Source: Oscillospiraceae bacterium
GTDB lineage: Bacteria > Bacillota > Clostridia > Christensenellales > Aristaeellaceae
DNA: 64,000 bases
Reading direction: 5' to 3'
NCBI GenBank assembly: GCA_031269355.1
Contig: JAISZG010000027.1
Location: 566-64,565, forward strand
Part shown: positions 491 to 63,810 of the stretch, piece by piece
Position numbering within the stretch: the first letter of the stretch is position 1
How the letters are laid out: the number at the start of each line of letters is the position of its first letter
Position numbers and translations under genes: made by a program
Notes under the pieces: generated by a model
Told to the model about the DNA's origin: nothing
What the model saw: the letters and a program-made list of their open reading frames with translations, nothing else
The model's database searches: none

Positions 491-2341
491 ATGAACATGA
501 CTACTACAAGTAATCCGTATCCAACCAACCTGTACTCGGGCAATCAATGCCAGAATACCCAGTACCCCAATAATCAGATTAGATGCCGCTATTGCGGCGA
601 CGGAACAAATCCCGATGTTGCAAACGCCGACGCAGGATGCACCGTATACTATAACAACTGTCCCGGCCCAAAGGGCGATATAGGCGATCCCGGCCCGATG
701 GGTCTGCCAGGGCCGCAGGGGCCTATGGGTCCGAAAGGTCAGAAAGGCGATCCAGGCGACCGCGGTTTGCAGGGCGCGCCCGGATGCCCTGGCCCCGCAG
801 GTTCGCCCGGCCCCGCCGGTCCGATGGGGCCGATGGGGAAGCAAGGCGTACGCGGAGACATAGGCCCGCAAGGAGATCCAGGATGCCAGGGGCCGCAAGG
901 CATAAAGGGAAACATCGGGCCTATGGGACCCGCCGGACCGCGCGGAGCGGTAGGCCCAAAGGGCGACCCCGGCCCGATCGGCCCGCAGGGTGATCCGGGG
1001 CCTGAAGGTCAGCAAGGCCCTGCCGGCCCCCCGGGCGCGCCGGGCGCTATGGGACCGGAAGGCGCCGCAGGGCCTCTAGGGCCGCAAGGAACCAGGGGCC
1101 CGCAGGGATGCGCAGGGCCGCAAGGGGCGCAGGGGCCTCAAGGCCTAATGGGACCAACCGGCGCGGAAGGCCCCGTAGGGCCAATGGGCCCCGCTGGACC
1201 CACCGGCGCAATCGGCACCGTCATAAAAGGCTCGTATACTAGTGTAGCCGACCTGCAAAGCGCGATTCCCACTGGAAACGCAGGAGACGGGTATCTTGTA
1301 AACGGCGACCTCTATACCTGGAACTCCGTTAATAATAGCTGGGATAATGTCGGCGCGCTTATCGGCCCTAGCGGTCCGACAGGCCCTAGCGGACCAACAG
1401 GCCCCCTCGGACCGACCGGCACAGTAATTAAAGGCTCGTACTCATCGCTGACCGACCTTCAAAGCGCAATTCCCGTTGGAAAAGATGGAGACGGCTACCT
1501 TATAAACGGCGACTTGTATTCTTGGGATACATCAACCGGCACTTGGAAGAATGTCGGCACGCTTCTTGGACCTATGGGACCGACAGGATCGCGAGGACCA
1601 GAGGGGCCAACCGGAGCAACCGGGCCTACAGGCGTAACCGGCCCGACCGGTTTAGGCACAATAATCAGAGACAGCTACAGAACGCTGGCCGAACTTCTGC
1701 AAGCGCACCCTTCAGGCTCGCTGGACGACGGTTACCTGGTGGACGGAGATTTATATGTGTGGGATACCACGCTAAATCCGCCGGCCTGGGCAAGCCGAGG
1801 CAGCTTGAGAGGCCAGTCGCGCACTTTAACAATCATCCCGTTCGCGTCGGGAAATGTAGTGCCTGTAAGCACCAGCGCAATTGGCACAAGCGCGAATTGC
1901 TTCGCCTTAGGCTACGGAGTCACATCCCCTCCTATGGTAACGTCAGCCCGCCCCGGCAACGTTGTTATGCCGGAAGATGCGCAGATGGTTTTCTCTATGC
2001 CATATAACGGCGTTATCGAAAGCTTCTACGCTTCCCTTGTAAACACAGCCGCCGTGACTACTCCGACAGGCATAAACGCCACGCTGGTTGTGCAGATATA
2101 TACGGCGGCCGGAGACAGCGCCTCCTTTGACGCGCTTCCAAACGCGAGGCTAGAATACGCGTTCAGCGGCACAAGGCCGGCCAATACCGTCACACCGCTG
2201 GCTTCCCCGGCTATGAATGTACCCATAAATGCCGGAAGGCGCGTTTTCATCGGCGTAACGCTGGAATCGACCGGCACCGGTACTCTTGATTTCTCCCTAG
2301 ACGTGGCTTTCTCGGGCGGTGTTTGCATAAGCAACCCGTAA
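491..2341 (+). CDS. Collagen-like triple-helix repeat protein with three interspersed globular modules and a non-collagen C-terminal domain (BclA/exosporium-filament-like)
   Basis: 616-aa ORF with about 61 uninterrupted Gly-X-Y triplets (nt 665-1213, my count). Three ~50-aa repeats (TVIKGSY..DLQSAIP..GDGYL.NGDLY.W....W.NVG) are separated by GPxGPT linkers. The last ~190 aa are globular. AGGAG at 484-488 favours the second ATG at 497. Confidence 0.85.
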
Positions 2342-19205: not shown

Positions 19206-19257
19206 GCGGAGCGCGCGCCGACCCGAATTAAATGGGGCCGCGCGCCATACCCGCCAA
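19206..19257 (-). repeat. Copy A of the recurrent GC-rich element, overlapping the stop codon of the 325-aa ORF
   Basis: Minus-sense GGCGGGTATGGCGCGCGGCCCCATTTAATTCGGGTCGGCGCGCGCTCCGC. Confidence 0.6.
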
Positions 19258-52445: not shown

Positions 52446-52556
52446 ATGGCGAAAAAAAAGCGCGCGTCCGGCGCTACGCTGGCTGCGCGGGGAATCGCGG
52501 GCGCGATCGCGCTGTTTATGGTGCTGGCTCTGATCGCGACGTTTGTGATTCGTTAA
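52446..52556 (+). CDS. Candidate 36-aa single-pass membrane peptide
   Basis: AGGAGG (52431-52436) lies 9 nt before the ATG. Sequence MAKKKRASGATLAARGIAGAIALFMVLALIATFVIR. It is below the ORF-track size cutoff and overlaps the 3' end of the phosphatase gene convergently by 41 nt. Confidence 0.4.
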   Translation: MAKKKRASGATLAARGIAGAIALFMVLALIATFVIR

Positions 52557-53073
52557 CGGCGGAATCGATCGGCGGAAGCGAACGGATCATCCTGCGCAGT
52601 CCCGCGTCGATAAGCTTGCGCAGCTGCGCCCCGCACGCGCTGTATTCAGCCGCGCCGCCGCAATATGGATCGCATACGTCGCCGTCCTGATCGGCGGCCC
52701 AGGCGCTGATAGTCATTACGCGCGCGCGCGGCGCTATTCTGCGCGCGACGGCGGCCTGCGCGCGGGTCATAGTAAGCACAAGCGCGCCCTCCGCCTGCTC
52801 GGCGGCAAACCTGCGCGTCTTGTGATCGTCCAGCGATAACCCCGCCACGCGAACCGCTCCGCACGCGCCGTCGGACGCCGGAGCGCCTATCGGCGCGGAA
52901 ATTCCTGCGGACGATATCCGCCATCGCGCCAGGCAGCTCGGGCAGTTGCGCTTTAGCCAGTCGCGCGCGAACGCTTCCGCCATAGGGCTGCGGCAGGTAT
53001 TGCCCGTGCATACGAACACAATCGAATACAGCGGCGGCAGCTCGTTTGCGGGGACGCGCCTAAACTGAGTCAT
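52516..53073 (-). CDS. Low-molecular-weight protein-tyrosine phosphatase / ArsC-like phosphatase
   Basis: P-loop VCTGNTCRSPMAE and DPY general-acid motif. ATGA overlap with the upstream GuaA-like gene. Confidence 0.85.
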   Translation of the reverse strand: MTQFRRVPANELPPLYSIVFVCTGNTCRSPMAEAFARDWLKRNCPSCLARWRISSAGISAPIGAPASDGACGAVRVAGLSLDDHKTRRFAAEQAEGALVLTMTRAQAAVARRIAPRARVMTISAWAADQDGDVCDPYCGGAAEYSACGAQLRKLIDAGLRRMIRSLPPIDSAVNESQTSRSEPAP

Positions 53074-54476
53074 TCGGCGGTCAATTCGTAGTATACGTGC
53101 TTAACGCCGGGAAGATCGGCTCCGACGCGCTCGACTACGCGCCCCAGCAAATCAAACGGAAGCCGCGCAGCGGTCGCTTTCTCGCCCCCTGAAAGCGCGC
53201 GCAGCACAAGCGTCGTATCCCGCGAATCCGTCAGCATCGCGTAATATTGGCGAAGCCGCCGCTCCTGCCCGGCCGCCTCTATTTCTTCCTGAAATATCAC
53301 GTCCGCAGCGCGCAATATATTAAGGCGCCCGGCGTCCACCTCGCCAAGTATGCGCCCGGCCAGACCCGTCGCAGGGAATGATTGCATTTGTATAATTGAT
53401 TGAGGCAGCCCCAGCAGCTCGCCGACCGCGCGCACCTCATCCTTGAACAATTCTATAAGCGGTTCGACCACCGCCCTAAACGGAGCATACTCCCTATCTA
53501 TATCGGAGCTTCCATCGCCGTCCAGCACCTCGGAATAATTTGTTCCAAGAACCAGCGTGGCGCTCTCGGCTTCGCAGCCGACGCTTCTGGTCAGCGCCTC
53601 CCAGAACGCGCCGTTTACGGCCTGCTCCTTGCCGCACGGATCGCTTATGCATTTTAGGCGATCAAGAAACAGCTCGCGCGCGTCTTCGCGAGTTAAATCG
53701 GAGTTTAACTGCTGCCTGCAAAACGATTCGATCCGCCTGTCCTCGCCCTGGCGCATCAGCCCTGTATCGATAAAAACAGGCCGCATTCGGCTGCCGACCG
53801 CGCGTTTGCACAGCATCGCGCATACGGACGAATCGACGCCGCCGCTCAGCGCGCATATCAGCAGGCCGTTTCCCGCCAGGCGCGCGAGCTCCGACGTCGC
53901 GCGTTCGACGAACGCTTCCGTGGACCACCACTTCGTGCACCCGCATATCTGCACGCAGAAATTCGCGAGCATCTCTACGCCGTCCGGATCGTTGCGCTCA
54001 AACGAGAACTGCAGCCCGTACAGAGAACGGTTCTTGTCGCAGAACCCAACGTCTACGCCGTTCGCCTTCGCTATCGACATCAGATTCGGGGAAAGCGTAA
54101 GCCGCTCCGCGCGGGAGAACCAGCGCTCGCCCGAGGATATGCCCTCGAACAACAGCTGCGCGTCGTACTCCACTGGCGCGGTGGTGTCCGTTAATATCGA
54201 GCCGTCGGATTGCGCGCCGAGCATGTCGGCAAGCTGCAGCGCGGCGGCGCCGACCGCGAGCATCGGCGTATCCAAGTTCAGTATGCCCTCGTCCAACGGC
54301 CTGAGGTCGCTTTCCTGACCCGCCCACACAATCCCGCTGGCATCCTGCGCCGCAACCTCCGAGGCCGCAGAATCGCCCGGAAGTATCTTGCAGTAGATAT
54401 GCTGGGAGCGGAGCTTCCTCGCAATGGATATGCTCCCATATGTATCCATATCCAGCACAAGTATTTTATCAAGCAT
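53070..54476 (-). CDS. GuaA-like PP-loop ATP pyrophosphatase with a degenerate glutamine-amidotransferase domain
   Basis: PP-loop ALSGGVDSSV and VEPLIELFKDEVR are conserved. The GATase Cys site reads AVGAAAL and the FHPE site reads FSFE. The C-terminal VGVMGD and PPATIEWE segments are absent. Confidence 0.8.
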   Translation of the reverse strand: MLDKILVLDMDTYGSISIARKLRSQHIYCKILPGDSAASEVAAQDASGIVWAGQESDLRPLDEGILNLDTPMLAVGAAALQLADMLGAQSDGSILTDTTAPVEYDAQLLFEGISSGERWFSRAERLTLSPNLMSIAKANGVDVGFCDKNRSLYGLQFSFERNDPDGVEMLANFCVQICGCTKWWSTEAFVERATSELARLAGNGLLICALSGGVDSSVCAMLCKRAVGSRMRPVFIDTGLMRQGEDRRIESFCRQQLNSDLTREDARELFLDRLKCISDPCGKEQAVNGAFWEALTRSVGCEAESATLVLGTNYSEVLDGDGSSDIDREYAPFRAVVEPLIELFKDEVRAVGELLGLPQSIIQMQSFPATGLAGRILGEVDAGRLNILRAADVIFQEEIEAAGQERRLRQYYAMLTDSRDTTLVLRALSGGEKATAARLPFDLLGRVVERVGADLPGVKHVYYELTAE

Positions 54477-54497
54477 ACTGAACGGCTCCTCCCTTTA

Positions 54498-54558
54498 GCG
54501 CGGGGTTTCACACCCCGCCGCCCCGCGAATTAAATGGGGCTGCGCCACATACCCGCCG
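54498..54558 (-). repeat. Copy B of the recurrent GC-rich element in the 5' leader of the GuaA-like gene
   Basis: Minus-sense GGCGGGTATGTGGCGCAGCCCCATTTAATTCGCGGGGCGGCGGGGTGTGAAACCCCGC, then AAAGGGAGGAG and ATG. Confidence 0.6.
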
Positions 54559-54672
54559 ACGTAACGAACGGCGTTTGCGGCGCACGGACTAAAATTTATA
54601 TGCGAGCGCCTTTTATTATAAGACAGGCGATGACGAGCACGCCAACCTGCGGCGTCTTCCGCAGCCGCTTGC

Positions 54673-56601
54673 TCATAAGGCTGCGTTTCGCGCCAGCTCG
54701 CAAGCCGTTTGCGCAGACCAGGCCGGGAACTGGGCTATGCGCAGGCGCGTTTGCGCGTATGGCGTCAGCGTTCGCTCGCATATGGAATCCGCCAGGATTT
54801 CCGGATCGCGGGGCGGCGCTGCTGCCGCTTTATGTTTCACTCCCCACCCGGGCGCTTGAGCGGTTGAACAGCGCACCAGCGGCGGTTCGCCGGTTCGAAG
54901 CGCGGGAACCTTTTCCAGCTCAGCATCTGCGGCAAGCGCTACCTTCCATTCGGAACAAGCGGAGTACGCGAACGCTTCCTCGCCCGCCGCCGCTGAAACC
55001 GCCGTTTCACGCGCCTCTATCGGAAGCGCGTACAGCGTCGGGCCGATCGCTACGGATAGATTCGCCGGGCTTACCTCGACGAGTTCAGGCCGCATAGGCA
55101 GCGTCAGGCGAATACAGTCGCCGCTGCGGAATACGCGCTCGACGCGCACGAACGTTCCCGGAGAGCATTCAAGCGTTTGACCGTCCGGCAGCGTCGCGAA
55201 AGCGCCGTTAGCCCAGGCGGGTATGCGCAGATAAATCGGCAGCTTTACCGGATCTTTGCACGATATGCGAATGCGAACCGTTTCCTCATACGGATACGCC
55301 GTTTCGACATCCAGGCGTATAAGCCGCCCGTCGACGCGATGCCTCACCACGCAGGGCGCCGCGCCCATCATCGCCAATCCCGCGTCCTCCGCGCGCATCC
55401 ATAGCGATACGACGTACTCCGGCAGCGCGCCGAAAAGCCTCGAAGCGACGGGATCGGTCGGCGGTCGGCGTATATATAATCCGGCGTCGTCGCTCAGGCT
55501 GTAATGCGCGCGCGCAACCGCCGAGCACTCTATCTGGTTCACGCGTTGCGCTTCCTGAACGGAGCGCGCGTCCGGCGATATGGCTGCGGGAATCAGGTTG
55601 AACGCCAACCTTTCAAGTATATCCGCATATCTCGCGATCCAACCGACATCGTCCGTCGCCCATAGCGCAGTGATAAGCGCGCGCATCGTCTCGCAGACGG
55701 CGGCGCTAGATATCCCCTTCGACGGATCGCGCCCTTCCAGATATTCGTCGCATGTGAACATATCCGCCGCGACGCCATGATTCTTTATCAGTTTCTCAAA
55801 CCCTATCGAAAACGCCTGTTCGTCCTTCAGGCCTCCGGTGAACATGCTCTTCACCGCGCACGCGCGCAGACCCATAGCCGCCATATCGCCGCGAGCCGCG
55901 AGCGAGAGATGCGTATGGAACGGGAGAACCGCGCCGATCATCTGAGCTCGTTCCTCGCGCGCAATGCGGGCGAGCTGTTCCGAGGGTATCGATCGGTTCA
56001 TCGGCTGAATCTGGGGAAAGCGGTGATACCAGCCCGTCCAGTCCAAACCGATACGCGACCACTTCTGCGCCAGCTTCAGCAATTGAGCGCGGCCGGTATG
56101 ATTATACGCGTTCAGCGCGATATACGCGAACTCACCCCAAACCGCCAGCGATTCCGGATCGCCGGGCGCAGATTTCACCAGCGCGCCAAGCTGATCCGCG
56201 CAGTGGCGAAGCGCATATTGGATAGCGCGCGCGTCGCCGGTCGCTTCAAAATAATGGAGCGCGGCGCGCGGCGCGACGTACGATTCCGGCGCGATGGAGA
56301 CAATCGAGCGATTCCCGCCGCCAGCCTCGTCCAAATCGAACAAACGGGCGAACGCTCGATCGGTATGCCGAAGCAGCGATGCGTCGCCCGTGACGCGAGA
56401 TACGTACAGCAGCGCTTCCATCGCGCGCGGCAGGGACGATTCATCCCGCGCGGAGTTCTGCTCAAGCGTCTCCAGCCATCGTTCGTTCTGCGCGCTGAGT
56501 TTATCGCCAAGCCAGCCCGACGCGCGTACTGCACCGATCGGAAGCGGCGTAAAGCGGTTTGCTCGAAGCGGCGAGCGATTCCAGGAGGATTGGACGGGCA
56601 T
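54673..56601 (-). CDS. Glycoside hydrolase, DUF1680/GH127-like (beta-L-arabinofuranosidase family)
   Basis: About 640 aa. The N-terminal pattern and a CET-containing segment are reminiscent of GH127. Assigned from memory; start set at the ATG at 56601. Confidence 0.5.
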   Translation of the reverse strand: MPVQSSWNRSPLRANRFTPLPIGAVRASGWLGDKLSAQNERWLETLEQNSARDESSLPRAMEALLYVSRVTGDASLLRHTDRAFARLFDLDEAGGGNRSIVSIAPESYVAPRAALHYFEATGDARAIQYALRHCADQLGALVKSAPGDPESLAVWGEFAYIALNAYNHTGRAQLLKLAQKWSRIGLDWTGWYHRFPQIQPMNRSIPSEQLARIAREERAQMIGAVLPFHTHLSLAARGDMAAMGLRACAVKSMFTGGLKDEQAFSIGFEKLIKNHGVAADMFTCDEYLEGRDPSKGISSAAVCETMRALITALWATDDVGWIARYADILERLAFNLIPAAISPDARSVQEAQRVNQIECSAVARAHYSLSDDAGLYIRRPPTDPVASRLFGALPEYVVSLWMRAEDAGLAMMGAAPCVVRHRVDGRLIRLDVETAYPYEETVRIRISCKDPVKLPIYLRIPAWANGAFATLPDGQTLECSPGTFVRVERVFRSGDCIRLTLPMRPELVEVSPANLSVAIGPTLYALPIEARETAVSAAAGEEAFAYSACSEWKVALAADAELEKVPALRTGEPPLVRCSTAQAPGWGVKHKAAAAPPRDPEILADSICERTLTPYAQTRLRIAQFPAWSAQTACELARNAAL

Positions 56602-56761
56602 ACGGTTCCTTCTTCCGTTCTTCAATGAATACAATTTGGATACAATTTCTACATAATTATATCGCAAACCCAGCCGTACGTAAAGTGCGATAAAAAACAT
56701 TTCGCCATATAAAGTGTATATCTCGACATTTATACGATCACCAACAACTGACGCATTGCCG

Positions 56762-57070
56762 TCAATCCAAGCCGAACATAGCGATTGTCGGTTGATTATC
56801 TTCCAGCCAATATACCGAACAGTTTGGCTCTCTACTTAAAAATCCCCTGTCATACATGTCACGCCTTAGCATTGCCCAATCCTCAAACGTGTGCCAGTTT
56901 TGTAAGATTTGATTAATTTCTTTTTCAGAATATTTCTTTCCAGATTCAAACTTCGACGCAAGATAAAAAAGAGCGATGATTTTCAGCTTTAATTTTGAAG
57001 GATAGCTTATTAGCCGTCCCTCGTTATCAAGGAAGTTTTTCAGTTCTTTTTCAAATAATTGATTATCCAT
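56762..57070 (-). CDS. DUF2087-like small protein
   Basis: LKIIALFYLASKFESGKKYSEKEINQILQNWHTFEDWAMLRRDMYDRGFL matches my recollection of DUF2087. AT-rich islet. Confidence 0.6.
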   Translation of the reverse strand: MDNQLFEKELKNFLDNEGRLISYPSKLKLKIIALFYLASKFESGKKYSEKEINQILQNWHTFEDWAMLRRDMYDRGFLSREPNCSVYWLEDNQPTIAMFGLD

Positions 57071-57121
57071 TGTAACCACCAACTTTAATAACAAGCTGTC
57101 AGCAATCTATCGATCAGAATT

Positions 57122-63749: not shown

Positions 63750-63810
63750 GCGCGGAGTTCTGCCCCGCCGCCCCGAATTGAATGAACCTGCACCCCATAC
63801 CCGCTCCGTT
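63750..63810 (-). repeat. Copy C of the recurrent GC-rich element in the 5' leader of the M32 carboxypeptidase gene
   Basis: Minus-sense AGCGGGTATGGGGTGCAGGTTCATTCAATTCGGGGCGGCGGGGCAGAACTCCGCGC, then GCAGGAAGGA and ATG. Confidence 0.6.

What the first reader, a model, noticed from the sequence alone, without database searches (positions are those of the whole stretch)
52516..54476. GuaA paralog with a dead glutaminase domain and missing XMP-site motifs, translationally coupled to an LMW phosphatase
The 468-aa protein keeps the PP-loop (ALSGGVDSSV) and the central ATP-pyrophosphatase core (VFIDTGLMR, VEPLIELFKDEVR). The class-I amidotransferase nucleophile position (GxCYGMQ in GuaA) reads AVGAAAL. 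The FHPE histidine position reads FSFE. The KSHHNVGGLP, VGVMGDxRxY and C-terminal PPATIEWE segments of bona fide GMP synthases are absent. Its stop overlaps (ATGA) the start of a CX5R low-molecular-weight phosphatase gene. The pair is preceded by an about 130-nt leader carrying copy B of the recurrent element. This suggests an adenylating enzyme repurposed for a substrate other than XMP and working with a phosphatase. I know of no described pathway with this pairing.
Basis: partly seen in the sequence, partly recalled or inferred. Interest (0 to 1): 0.6.

Follow-up and report, generated by a model that had tools for sequence, protein, structure and literature searches.

The report
Degenerate GMP synthase paralog, unknown role
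This gene is an old, conserved duplicate of GMP synthase that keeps its ATP-binding core but has lost the parts needed to make GMP, so it does something else that is still unknown, and its link to the neighbouring phosphatase looks recent and incidental.

Summary
The minus-strand gene 53070..54476 encodes a full-length, well-folding GuaA homolog. The glutaminase nucleophile Cys is Gly76 and the triad His is Ser158. The invariant IK(S/T)HH lid loop and the VGVMGDxRxY hairpin are deleted, and the KPPxTIEWE tail that holds the XMP phosphate is gone. The PP-loop, the FKDEVR Lys/Glu/Arg and an acidic residue at the adenylation position remain.

An intact canonical guaA lies on another contig. The protein belongs to a single-origin clade of "lidless" GuaA paralogs, roughly 70-85 clusters at 50% identity. 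I found the clade only in uncultured gut Clostridia of one order. No curated family model or paper describes it.

The proposed partnership with the phosphatase is not supported. That adjacency occurs only in the closest relatives (54-57% identity). The phosphatase is the genome's only LMW phosphatase, carries the YwlE-type phospho-arginine P-loop (CTGNTCRS, DPY), and an McsB-type arginine kinase is encoded elsewhere.

The more widely conserved neighbour is an upstream GH127-like gene that has itself lost its catalytic and zinc cysteines. Best reading: an ATP-binding protein that does not make GMP, either a re-targeted adenylating enzyme or a regulatory pseudoenzyme. Substrate unknown.

The parts
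53070..54476 (-). GuaA-derived 'lidless' paralog, 468 aa, with a strong RBS (GGGAGGAG) 8 nt upstream of the ATG
   Evidence: AF2 model pLDDT 88.5, pTM 0.83. Foldseek top hits are all GMP synthases, TM 0.72-0.82.
53922..54476 (-). Residues 1-185: class-I GATase-fold domain without a catalytic triad (Gly76 for Cys, Ser158 for His, Glu160 kept). Carries paralog-specific invariant residues Arg118 and Asp163 (motif E-RNDPDG).
   Evidence: TIGR00888 scores only 55.6 bits against a cut-off of 172.
53337..53921 (-). Residues 186-380: ATP-pyrophosphatase core. PP-loop S211-GGVDS-216 lies at nt 53829-53846. Also VFIDTG (Thr238 for His), GTNYSEVLDG (Glu316 and Asp319 at the Asp371/Glu374 positions), F-K345-D-E347-V-R349 and R375. 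The lid loop is reduced to a disordered stub, residues 314-327.
53073..53336 (-). Residues 381-468: dimerisation-type C-terminal domain (two helices plus a three-stranded sheet predicted). It lacks the VGVMGDxRxY hairpin and the KPPxTIEWE XMP-phosphate clamp.
   Evidence: PMC4673825
52516..53073 (-). LMW phosphatase, 185 aa, YwlE-type (C22-TGNT-C27-R28-S29, D135-P-Y). Its start ATG overlaps the paralog's TGA stop (ATGA). It is the sole LMWPc gene in the genome.
54477..54672 (-). 196-nt intergenic leader between the GH127-like gene and the paralog. It contains the dispersed GC-rich hairpin repeat (54498-54558). No Rfam family matches.
   Evidence: earlier finding e1-3021564
54673..56700 (-). 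GH127-like (DUF1680-type) gene directly upstream; the likely true start is Met34. HypBA1-type zinc and nucleophile cysteines are missing (ETC becomes ETM at residue 337; CACCPPN becomes RRPPTDP at residue 411). It is the recurrent neighbour of the paralog across a deep subclade.

Best explanation
The gene is a member of an old, single-origin clade of guaA duplicates. I found the clade only in one order of uncultured gut Clostridia. The losses came in steps: first the glutaminase nucleophile and His, then the IK(S/T)HH lid loop, then the XMP-contacting hairpin and the C-terminal XMP-phosphate clamp.

What is kept is the GMP-synthase fold, the dimerisation-type C-domain and an intact ATP site: the PP-loop SGGVDS, Lys345/Glu347/Arg349, Arg375, and an acidic residue at the adenylation position. 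Two new invariant residues, Arg118 and Asp163, sit beside the retained Glu160 in the former glutaminase pocket.

Shown: it is not the cell's GMP synthase, because a canonical guaA is present, and it lacks elements that are invariant and required in every characterised GMP synthase.

Inferred: it still binds ATP and probably hydrolyses or transfers from it. With the lid and hairpin removed the active site is open. It either adenylates a different, possibly bulkier substrate (my preferred reading, about 45%) or acts as a nucleotide-binding regulatory or scaffold pseudoenzyme (about 35%).

The downstream phosphatase is the genome's YwlE-type protein-arginine phosphatase. It became translationally coupled to the paralog only in the window's immediate clade. 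The longer-standing partner is the upstream GH127-like protein, which has no catalytic cysteines.
For: The GuaA model scores 278 bits against a cut-off of 400, and no other PP-loop family scores above 39 bits. PDB GMP synthases match at E 1e-50 over the full length. The AF2 model has pLDDT 88.5 and Foldseek hits to GMPS have TM 0.72-0.82. Canonical guaA is on C93 at 767 bits with all motifs.

Site table over 52 non-redundant paralogs against 20 canonical GuaA:
- Cys nucleophile 0/52; triad His 4/52.
- Lid IKSHH deleted in 52/52; hairpin deleted in 46-49/52; Lys547-equivalent kept in 2/52.
- PP-loop Ser 48/52 (Thr in 4), Gly-Gly 52/52, Asp 50/52, second Ser 52/52.
- FKDE Lys 49/52; Glu 51/52; Arg 50/52; GLxxR Arg 52/52.
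- Asp371-equivalent acidic in 52/52.

Paralog-specific invariants are Arg118 52/52 and Asp163 52/52. In the tree, lidless paralogs form one clade (SH-aLRT 95). That clade is sister to a glutaminase-dead form that keeps the lid, and the joint clade has support 100.

PMC4673825 reports IK(T/S)HH conserved in 600 GMPS, a 420-fold loss for D371A, and Lys547/Glu553 at the XMP-phosphate position.

Distribution: all 9 sampled genomes of the own family have two GuaA-like hits; the five fetched and typed included a lidless paralog. None of about 380 genomes from other Clostridia orders scores above the canonical background. About 85 clusters at 50% identity match in 1.84 billion representatives.

Neighbourhood and phosphatase evidence.
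Against: There is no biochemical or expression data.

Four of 52 paralogs have TGGLDS or TGGLNS in place of SGGVDS. In those lineages ATP chemistry may be lost, which favours the pseudoenzyme reading.

The Glu374 equivalent is not conserved. Neighbourhoods outside the GH127-linked subclade are heterogeneous: rplQ plus purEFMN, PPK1, an NlpC-like gene plus an uncharacterised 269-aa ORF that I guessed from its sequence to be GNAT-like, or isolated. They point to no pathway.

The ATGA coupling to the phosphatase is conserved in four genomes. A lineage-specific functional link therefore cannot be excluded.
Confidence: 0.7

Rival explanations
1. It is a non-catalytic pseudoenzyme. The protein would bind ATP or another nucleotide, or nothing. 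It would act by protein-protein contact, for example by dimerising through the retained C-terminal domain with itself or with canonical GuaA, as 'prozyme' paralogs do, or by pairing with the cysteine-less GH127-like partner.
For: Both catalytic centres of the parent enzyme are dismantled. Some clade members have altered PP-loops, TGGLDS or TGGLNS. The dimerisation-type domain is retained and confidently modelled. GMPS nucleotide sites include residues from both monomers (PMC4673825). The conserved neighbour is itself an enzyme homolog that has lost its catalytic cysteines.
Against: The PP-loop, the Lys/Glu/Arg of FKDEVR and an acidic residue at the adenylation position are almost invariant over very deep divergence (30-40% identity). 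That is more than scaffolding alone would need. In the window protein the dimer-interface residues of canonical GMPS (RVVYD...TIEWE) are themselves changed to KHVYYE.
Confidence: 0.35
2. It is still a GMP synthase that uses free ammonia. The dead glutaminase domain would be irrelevant in the ammonia-rich gut.
For: Glutaminase-dead but otherwise complete GuaA proteins do occur in this order, and in some genomes they are the only copy: G001 (L017/L050) and G141 (L012/L041). C89A PfGMPS keeps its ammonia-dependent activity (PMC4673825).
Against: Unlike those forms, this protein also lacks the lid loop IK(S/T)HH, the hairpin, the KRK arginine and the KPPxTIEWE clamp. A fully canonical guaA is present in the same genome.
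Confidence: 0.05
3. The paralog and the LMW phosphatase would form a dedicated two-enzyme pathway: adenylation or phosphorylation of a novel substrate followed by dephosphorylation.
For: The 4-nt ATGA overlap in the window is repeated in L052. The genes are 2 nt apart in L004 and 19 nt apart in L053.
Against: The pairing is confined to one shallow subclade. The phosphatase is the only LMWPc gene in the genome. It has the YwlE phospho-arginine signature, and an McsB-type kinase is present. In a sister subclade the corresponding accessory gene is an 87-aa CPYC thioredoxin-fold protein, not a phosphatase.
Confidence: 0.08
4. It is a decaying pseudogene or an annotation artefact.
For: Many parent-enzyme motifs have been lost.
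Against: The reading frame is intact with a strong RBS. The AF2 model is confident. Intact full-length homologs exist in dozens of species, with invariant residues and a coherent phylogeny.
Confidence: 0.01

Closest known systems
Glutamine-hydrolysing GMP synthase GuaA (EC 6.3.5.2; e.g. E. coli 1GPM, A. baumannii 7SBC, T. thermophilus 2YWB)
   Same: It has the same three-part architecture and fold: a class-I GATase-fold N-domain, a PP-loop ATP-pyrophosphatase and a C-terminal dimerisation-type domain. The match runs over the full length (E 1e-50; TM 0.72-0.82). The PP-loop, FKDEVR and PFPxxGLxxR motifs are kept.
   Different: It has no Cys or His in the triad. The IK(S/T)HH lid, the VGVMGDxRxY hairpin and the KPPxTIEWE XMP-phosphate clamp are all missing. 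It scores 278 bits against the 400-bit family cut-off. A separate canonical guaA is present in the genome.
Glutaminase-dead but otherwise complete GuaA forms in the same order (L012/G141, L017/G001, L022/L023), and the ammonia-type GuaA family noted in earlier finding e1-959284
   Same: They share loss of the GATase nucleophile. L012 also shares the E-(Q/R)ND motif and is the sister of the lidless clade.
   Different: Those proteins keep the lid loop, the hairpin and the KPPxTIEWE tail, so they can plausibly still make GMP with ammonia. The window protein cannot by the known mechanism.
Catalytically dead paralogs that partner their parent enzyme ('prozymes', e.g. trypanosomatid AdoMetDC prozyme; PMC6221367, seen)
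   Same: It is a duplicate of a housekeeping enzyme that has lost catalytic residues, keeps the oligomerisation domain and coexists with the active copy.
   Different: No evidence here of interaction with canonical GuaA. The ATP site is conserved, which a pure activator subunit would not need.
YwlE / PtpB protein-arginine phosphatases of Firmicutes (LMW-PTP family)
   Same: The downstream gene has the C(X)4CR(S/T) P-loop with Thr at position 5 and the D-P-Y triad. An McsB-type kinase is present in the genome.
   Different: It has N- and C-terminal extensions of about 35 aa in total. Activity is not tested. In B. subtilis ywlE is not linked to a guaA-like gene (from my own knowledge).
GH127 beta-L-arabinofuranosidase (HypBA1 type; PDB 4QJY, 5MQO)
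   Same: The upstream neighbour matches the GH127 middle domain (49.7 bits) and, weakly, the catalytic domain.
   Different: The zinc and nucleophile cysteines are replaced or deleted in the window protein and in most partner orthologs. The catalytic-domain score is below the Pfam cut-off (21.2 against 24.9).

Membership tests
GMP synthase, glutamine-hydrolysing (GuaA) | Score at or above the curated cut-off of the equivalog model NF000848 (400 bits) | tested here: not met
   278.1 bits. The genome's canonical copy scores 767 bits.
GMP synthase, glutamine-hydrolysing (GuaA) | Class-I amidotransferase triad Cys-His-Glu | tested here: not met
   Gly76, Ser158 and Glu160 occupy the triad positions. 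Cys is present in 0/52 and His in 4/52 clade members.
GMP synthase, glutamine-hydrolysing (GuaA) | PP-loop SGGxDS ATP-pyrophosphatase motif | tested here: met
   S211-G-G-V-D-S216
GMP synthase, glutamine-hydrolysing (GuaA) | Lid loop with invariant IK(T/S)HH | tested here: not met
   Deleted in the window protein and in 52/52 clade members. Reported conserved in 600 GMPS sequences (PMC4673825).
GMP synthase, glutamine-hydrolysing (GuaA) | Catalytic Asp and Glu of the YPDxIES helix (PfGMPS Asp371 and Glu374) | tested here: inconclusive
   The window has Glu316 and Asp319 (GTNYSEVLDG). The first position is acidic in 52/52 members. The second is not conserved.
GMP synthase, glutamine-hydrolysing (GuaA) | XMP-phosphate clamp K-P-P-x-T-I-E-W-E at the C-terminus, and the VGVMGDxRxY hairpin | tested here: not met
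   Both are absent; the protein ends ...KHVYYELTAE.
GMP synthase, glutamine-hydrolysing (GuaA) | GMP-synthase fold | tested here: met
   AF2 pLDDT 88.5. The top 41 Foldseek PDB hits are all GMP synthases or their subunits.
GMP synthase, glutamine-hydrolysing (GuaA) | Catalyses XMP + ATP + Gln or NH3 -> GMP | not testable with these tools
   Needs an enzyme assay or complementation.
PP-loop ATP pyrophosphatase superfamily | SGGxDS loop in a Rossmann-like alpha/beta fold, with the conserved Lys, Glu and Arg of the ATP site | tested here: met
LMW-PTP / YwlE-type arginine phosphatase (downstream gene) | Pfam LMWPc above cut-off; C(X)4CR(S/T) P-loop; D-P-Y general-acid triad | tested here: met
   91.8 bits against a cut-off of 23.2. 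C22TGNTC27R28S29 and D135PY.
LMW-PTP / YwlE-type arginine phosphatase (downstream gene) | Thr at P-loop position 5 (phospho-arginine selectivity) and a cognate McsB kinase in the genome | tested here: met
   Thr26. The rule comes from PMC8001253. ATP-gua_Ptrans scores 219 bits on C93. Activity itself was not tested.
GH127 beta-L-arabinofuranosidase (upstream gene) | Catalytic-domain model above cut-off; Glu-x-Cys and Cys-Cys zinc/nucleophile motifs | tested here: not met
   PF07944 scores 21.2 bits against a cut-off of 24.9. ETC becomes ETM and CACCPPN becomes RRPPTDP.

The most novel reading that the evidence does not exclude
The lidless GuaA paralog and the cysteine-less GH127-like protein would form a previously unrecognised two-protein module. 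It would have a variable small accessory: a YwlE-type phosphatase in the window's clade and a CPYC thioredoxin-fold protein in a sister clade. The remodelled, opened PP-loop site would adenylate a new, bulkier substrate such as a glycan-, peptide- or nucleic-acid-borne group. The six-hairpin partner would hold that substrate. The result would be a new ATP-dependent modification chemistry specific to one order of gut Clostridia.
Probability: 0.2. Interest if true: 0.65.

Novelty: new variant of a known kind. Interest (0 to 1): 0.4.

Why it matters
Current pipelines annotate these genes as "GMP synthase", "7-cyano-7-deazaguanine synthase", "PAPS reductase family" or "hypothetical protein". That inflates purine-pathway calls in gut metagenome-assembled genomes.

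The clade preserves several stages in one lineage of how a two-site, channel-coupled enzyme is taken apart while its nucleotide-binding core is kept. The order of events was glutaminase death, then lid loss, then loss of the substrate clamp. That makes it a useful natural series for studying neofunctionalisation versus pseudoenzyme formation in PP-loop enzymes.

If the protein still adenylates something, it marks an unknown reaction in abundant uncultured gut Clostridia. The finding does not by itself open a long-standing question, and the proposed phosphatase pathway is not supported.

Tried and rejected
- Rfam scans found no riboswitch or other family in the window or in 10 related loci, so no purine-type leader gives a functional clue.
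- The 280-380 nt "leaders" upstream of the paralog in L059, L064, L068 and L072 are not RNA elements. They encode an 87-aa CPYC thioredoxin-fold ORF.
- I considered a sulfur-transfer role, because PP-loop sulfurtransferases use active-site cysteines. No paralog-specific conserved cysteine exists: C178 and C180 are also common in canonical GuaA. Rejected.
- The search for related loci with the single protein found nothing in GTDB genomes. The 17-row motif alignment was too diverse to search with. A 6-row motif alignment worked.
- The full-length paralog HMM does not separate paralogs from canonical GuaA, which scores 380-440 bits. I separated them by motif states, by paired phmmer scores and with an 80-aa paralog-specific profile.
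- My naive ORF-based neighbour clustering was confused by long antisense ORFs in these GC-rich genomes. I used only the recurrent clusters that tblastn confirmed.
- Literature searches found no paper on such paralogs.
- I did not attempt dN/dS because the nearest homolog with DNA in hand is only 55% identical, so synonymous sites are saturated.
Full report
**What is there**

Two co-directional minus-strand genes occupy 52516..54476. One is a 468-aa ORF at 53070..54476. The other is a 185-aa ORF at 52516..53073, whose ATG overlaps the first gene's TGA stop (ATGA). A strong RBS (GGGAGGAG) precedes the first gene.

Pfam sees only NAD_synthase (31 bits) and a sub-threshold GMP_synt_C match. NCBIfam aligns the whole protein to the GuaA equivalog, but at 278 bits against a cut-off of 400. 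No other PP-loop family exceeds 39 bits. PDB GMP synthases match end to end at E about 1e-50.

**Motif losses**

The genome has a second, canonical guaA on contig C93, scoring 767 bits. It carries GICYGMQ, FHPE, SGGVDS, KSHHNVGGLP, VGVMGDERTY and KPPASIEWE. Aligned to it, the window protein differs as follows:
- Gly76 replaces the nucleophile Cys.
- Ser158 replaces the triad His. Glu160 is kept.
- There is a deletion in place of the lid loop.
- There is a deletion in place of the VGVMGD hairpin.
- The C-terminal clamp is absent; the protein ends KHVYYELTAE.

According to PMC4673825, IK(T/S)HH is conserved in 600 GMPS sequences and Asp371 is essential for adenyl-XMP formation. The same paper places Lys547 and Glu553 at the XMP-phosphate position and reports that the nucleotide site uses both monomers.

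**Not a pseudogene**

An AlphaFold2 model built from 17 homologs is confident: pLDDT 88.5, pTM 0.83. Only the lid stub, residues 314-327, is disordered. Its best 41 PDB matches are GMP synthases or their subunits, with TM 0.72-0.82 for full-length enzymes.

**The family**

A word-indexed search returned 120 top hits of 466-505 aa. They come from uncultured Clostridia (Oscillospiraceae, Ca. Ventricola, Ca. Aphodomonas and others). Sources name them variously as hypothetical protein, GMP synthase, QueC or PAPS reductase.

A motif-directed scan of GTDB species genomes found 21 further loci. All are gut metagenome-assembled genomes from termite, chicken, roe deer, human and other hosts.

I scored 76 sequences for six motifs and built a maximum-likelihood tree. 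The lidless proteins form one clade (SH-aLRT 95). Their sister is L012 (G141), a form that has lost Cys and His but keeps the lid, the hairpin and the EWE tail. The joint clade has support 100. Early-branching lidless members (L013, L014, L047-L049) still keep the EWE tail. The losses were therefore stepwise.

Over 52 non-redundant lidless members:
- Lost: Cys 0/52, His 4/52, lid deleted in 52/52, hairpin deleted in 46-49/52, Lys547-equivalent kept in 2/52.
- Kept: PP-loop Ser 48/52 (Thr in 4), Gly-Gly 52/52, Asp 50/52, second Ser 52/52.
- Kept: FKDE Lys 49/52, Glu 51/52, Arg 50/52, GLxxR Arg 52/52.
- The Asp371 position is acidic in 52/52.

Two residues are invariant only in the paralogs: Arg118 and Asp163. 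They lie next to the retained Glu160 in the former glutaminase pocket.

All nine sampled genomes of the window's own family have two GuaA-like hits. The five I fetched and typed each carry a lidless paralog. A sample of 399 Clostridia genomes, scanned with an 80-aa paralog-specific profile, gave above-background scores only for the own-family genomes G000 and G008. Across 1.84 billion representative proteins the same profile finds about 85 clusters at E <= 1e-10.

**Neighbours**

The LMW phosphatase follows the paralog only in the window, L004 (the same contig as L058; also found in G219 as L080), L052 and L053. Those paralogs are 54-57% identical to the window's. It is absent from about 30 other paralog loci. 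Among 12 same-family genomes with an LMW phosphatase homolog, only two have the paralog upstream.

The phosphatase is the genome's only LMWPc gene. Its P-loop is C-T-G-N-T-C-R-S, with Thr at position 5, and it has a D-P-Y triad. This is the signature that directs YwlE and PtpB to phospho-arginine (PMC8001253). An McsB-type arginine kinase is encoded on C93. The simplest reading is a housekeeping arginine phosphatase that became translationally coupled to the paralog recently.

The upstream GH127-like gene shows a deeper association. It sits directly before the paralog in 12 distinct loci: the window, L004, L052, L053, L055, L059, L064, L067, L068, L072, L074 and L076. L058 and L073 are second copies of L004 and L055. 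Those paralogs are only 36-57% identical to the window's, and the rest of the synteny differs. Intergenic gaps range from 11 to 380 nt. All these loci fall in one 25-row subclade with support 92.

The GH127-like proteins themselves lack the HypBA1-type zinc and nucleophile cysteines. In the window, ETC has become ETM and CACCPPN has become RRPPTDP. In the 520-530-aa orthologs that segment is deleted. L052 keeps a Cys-Cys pair.

In the L059/L064/L068/L072 group the apparent long leader encodes an 87-aa CPYC thioredoxin/glutaredoxin-fold protein, lying between the two genes. Other lineages place the paralog in different settings: after rplQ and before purEFMN (L007), beside PPK1, OadB and DeoR genes, between an NlpC-like gene and an uncharacterised 269-aa ORF, or alone. 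No Rfam element is present.

**Interpretation**

Shown:
- It is a conserved, single-origin GuaA-derived paralog.
- It coexists with canonical GuaA.
- It has lost the glutaminase, the lid and the XMP-clamp features.
- It retains the ATP-site residues and the fold.
- The phosphatase linkage is limited to one clade.

Inferred: ATP binding, and probably adenylyl-transfer chemistry, persists. The loss of the lid and hairpin opens the site to a different substrate. Alternatively the protein is a nucleotide-binding pseudoenzyme. I put these at about 45% and 35%. Residual ammonia-dependent GMP synthesis gets about 5%, and a dedicated paralog-phosphatase pathway about 8%. The substrate cannot be deduced from these data.

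**Comparison and novelty**

The closest known entity is GuaA itself. The membership tests fail on the equivalog score, the triad, the lid and the XMP clamp. They pass on the PP-loop and the fold.

Glutaminase-dead but otherwise complete GuaA forms occur in the same order and are sometimes the only copy (G001, G141). They are a different, less reduced state.

I found no curated model or paper for the lidless clade. I class it as a new variant of a known kind and of moderate interest.

The leader repeat is real. It matches the earlier REP-like assessment e1-3021564 and is not specific to this gene.

Noticed in passing
window 54673-56700 (minus strand): The GH127-like gene directly upstream of the paralog lacks the HypBA1-type zinc and nucleophile cysteines (ETC becomes ETM; CACCPPN becomes RRPPTDP). 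It is the paralog's most widely conserved neighbour, present in 12 distinct loci. So two adjacent genes both look like enzymes that have lost their catalytic residues.
   Followed up: partly
L064 7317-7580 (also L059, L068, L072; remnant in L074): In a sister subclade, an 87-aa CPYC thioredoxin/glutaredoxin-fold ORF sits between the GH127-like gene and the paralog. It sits next to the paralog, upstream of it, whereas the window's accessory, the phosphatase, lies downstream.
   Followed up: partly
L012/L041 (G141), L017/L050 (G001), L022 (G165), L023 (G028): These GuaA proteins have no nucleophile Cys (GIGYGA, GIGYSHQ, GIGQGQ) but have a complete lid, hairpin and KPPATIEWE tail. In G141 and G001 this is the only GuaA-like gene, and no separate GuaA-type GATase subunit was found. 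That suggests ammonia-dependent GMP synthesis in some gut Clostridia.
   Followed up: partly
L039, L045, L046 (G105, G047, G176): A few lidless paralogs have the PP-loop changed to TGGLDS or TGGLNS, so ATP chemistry may be lost in those lineages.
   Followed up: no
window 665-1143: Direct-repeat families D1 and D4 are GGN-NNN-NNN repeats (GGCCCAAAGGGCGAT...). They look like a collagen-like Gly-X-Y repeat coding region.
   Followed up: no
window 19224-19255, 54526-54557, 63774-63805: Three copies of the CGAATTAAATGGGGC...CATACCCGCC element (75-91% identical). One lies in the paralog's leader. This is consistent with the dispersed REP-like repeat described in earlier finding e1-3021564.
   Followed up: partly
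G000 contig C93:151385-151972 (outside the window): An McsB-type protein arginine kinase domain (ATP-gua_Ptrans, 219 bits). It is the likely counterpart of the window's YwlE-type phosphatase.
   Followed up: partly
window 56762-57094 (minus strand): A DUF2087 protein (90 bits) is encoded in the AT-rich islet between the GH127-like gene and the MTS methyltransferase gene. It is absent from the syntenic locus L004, where a CorA gene sits instead.
   Followed up: no
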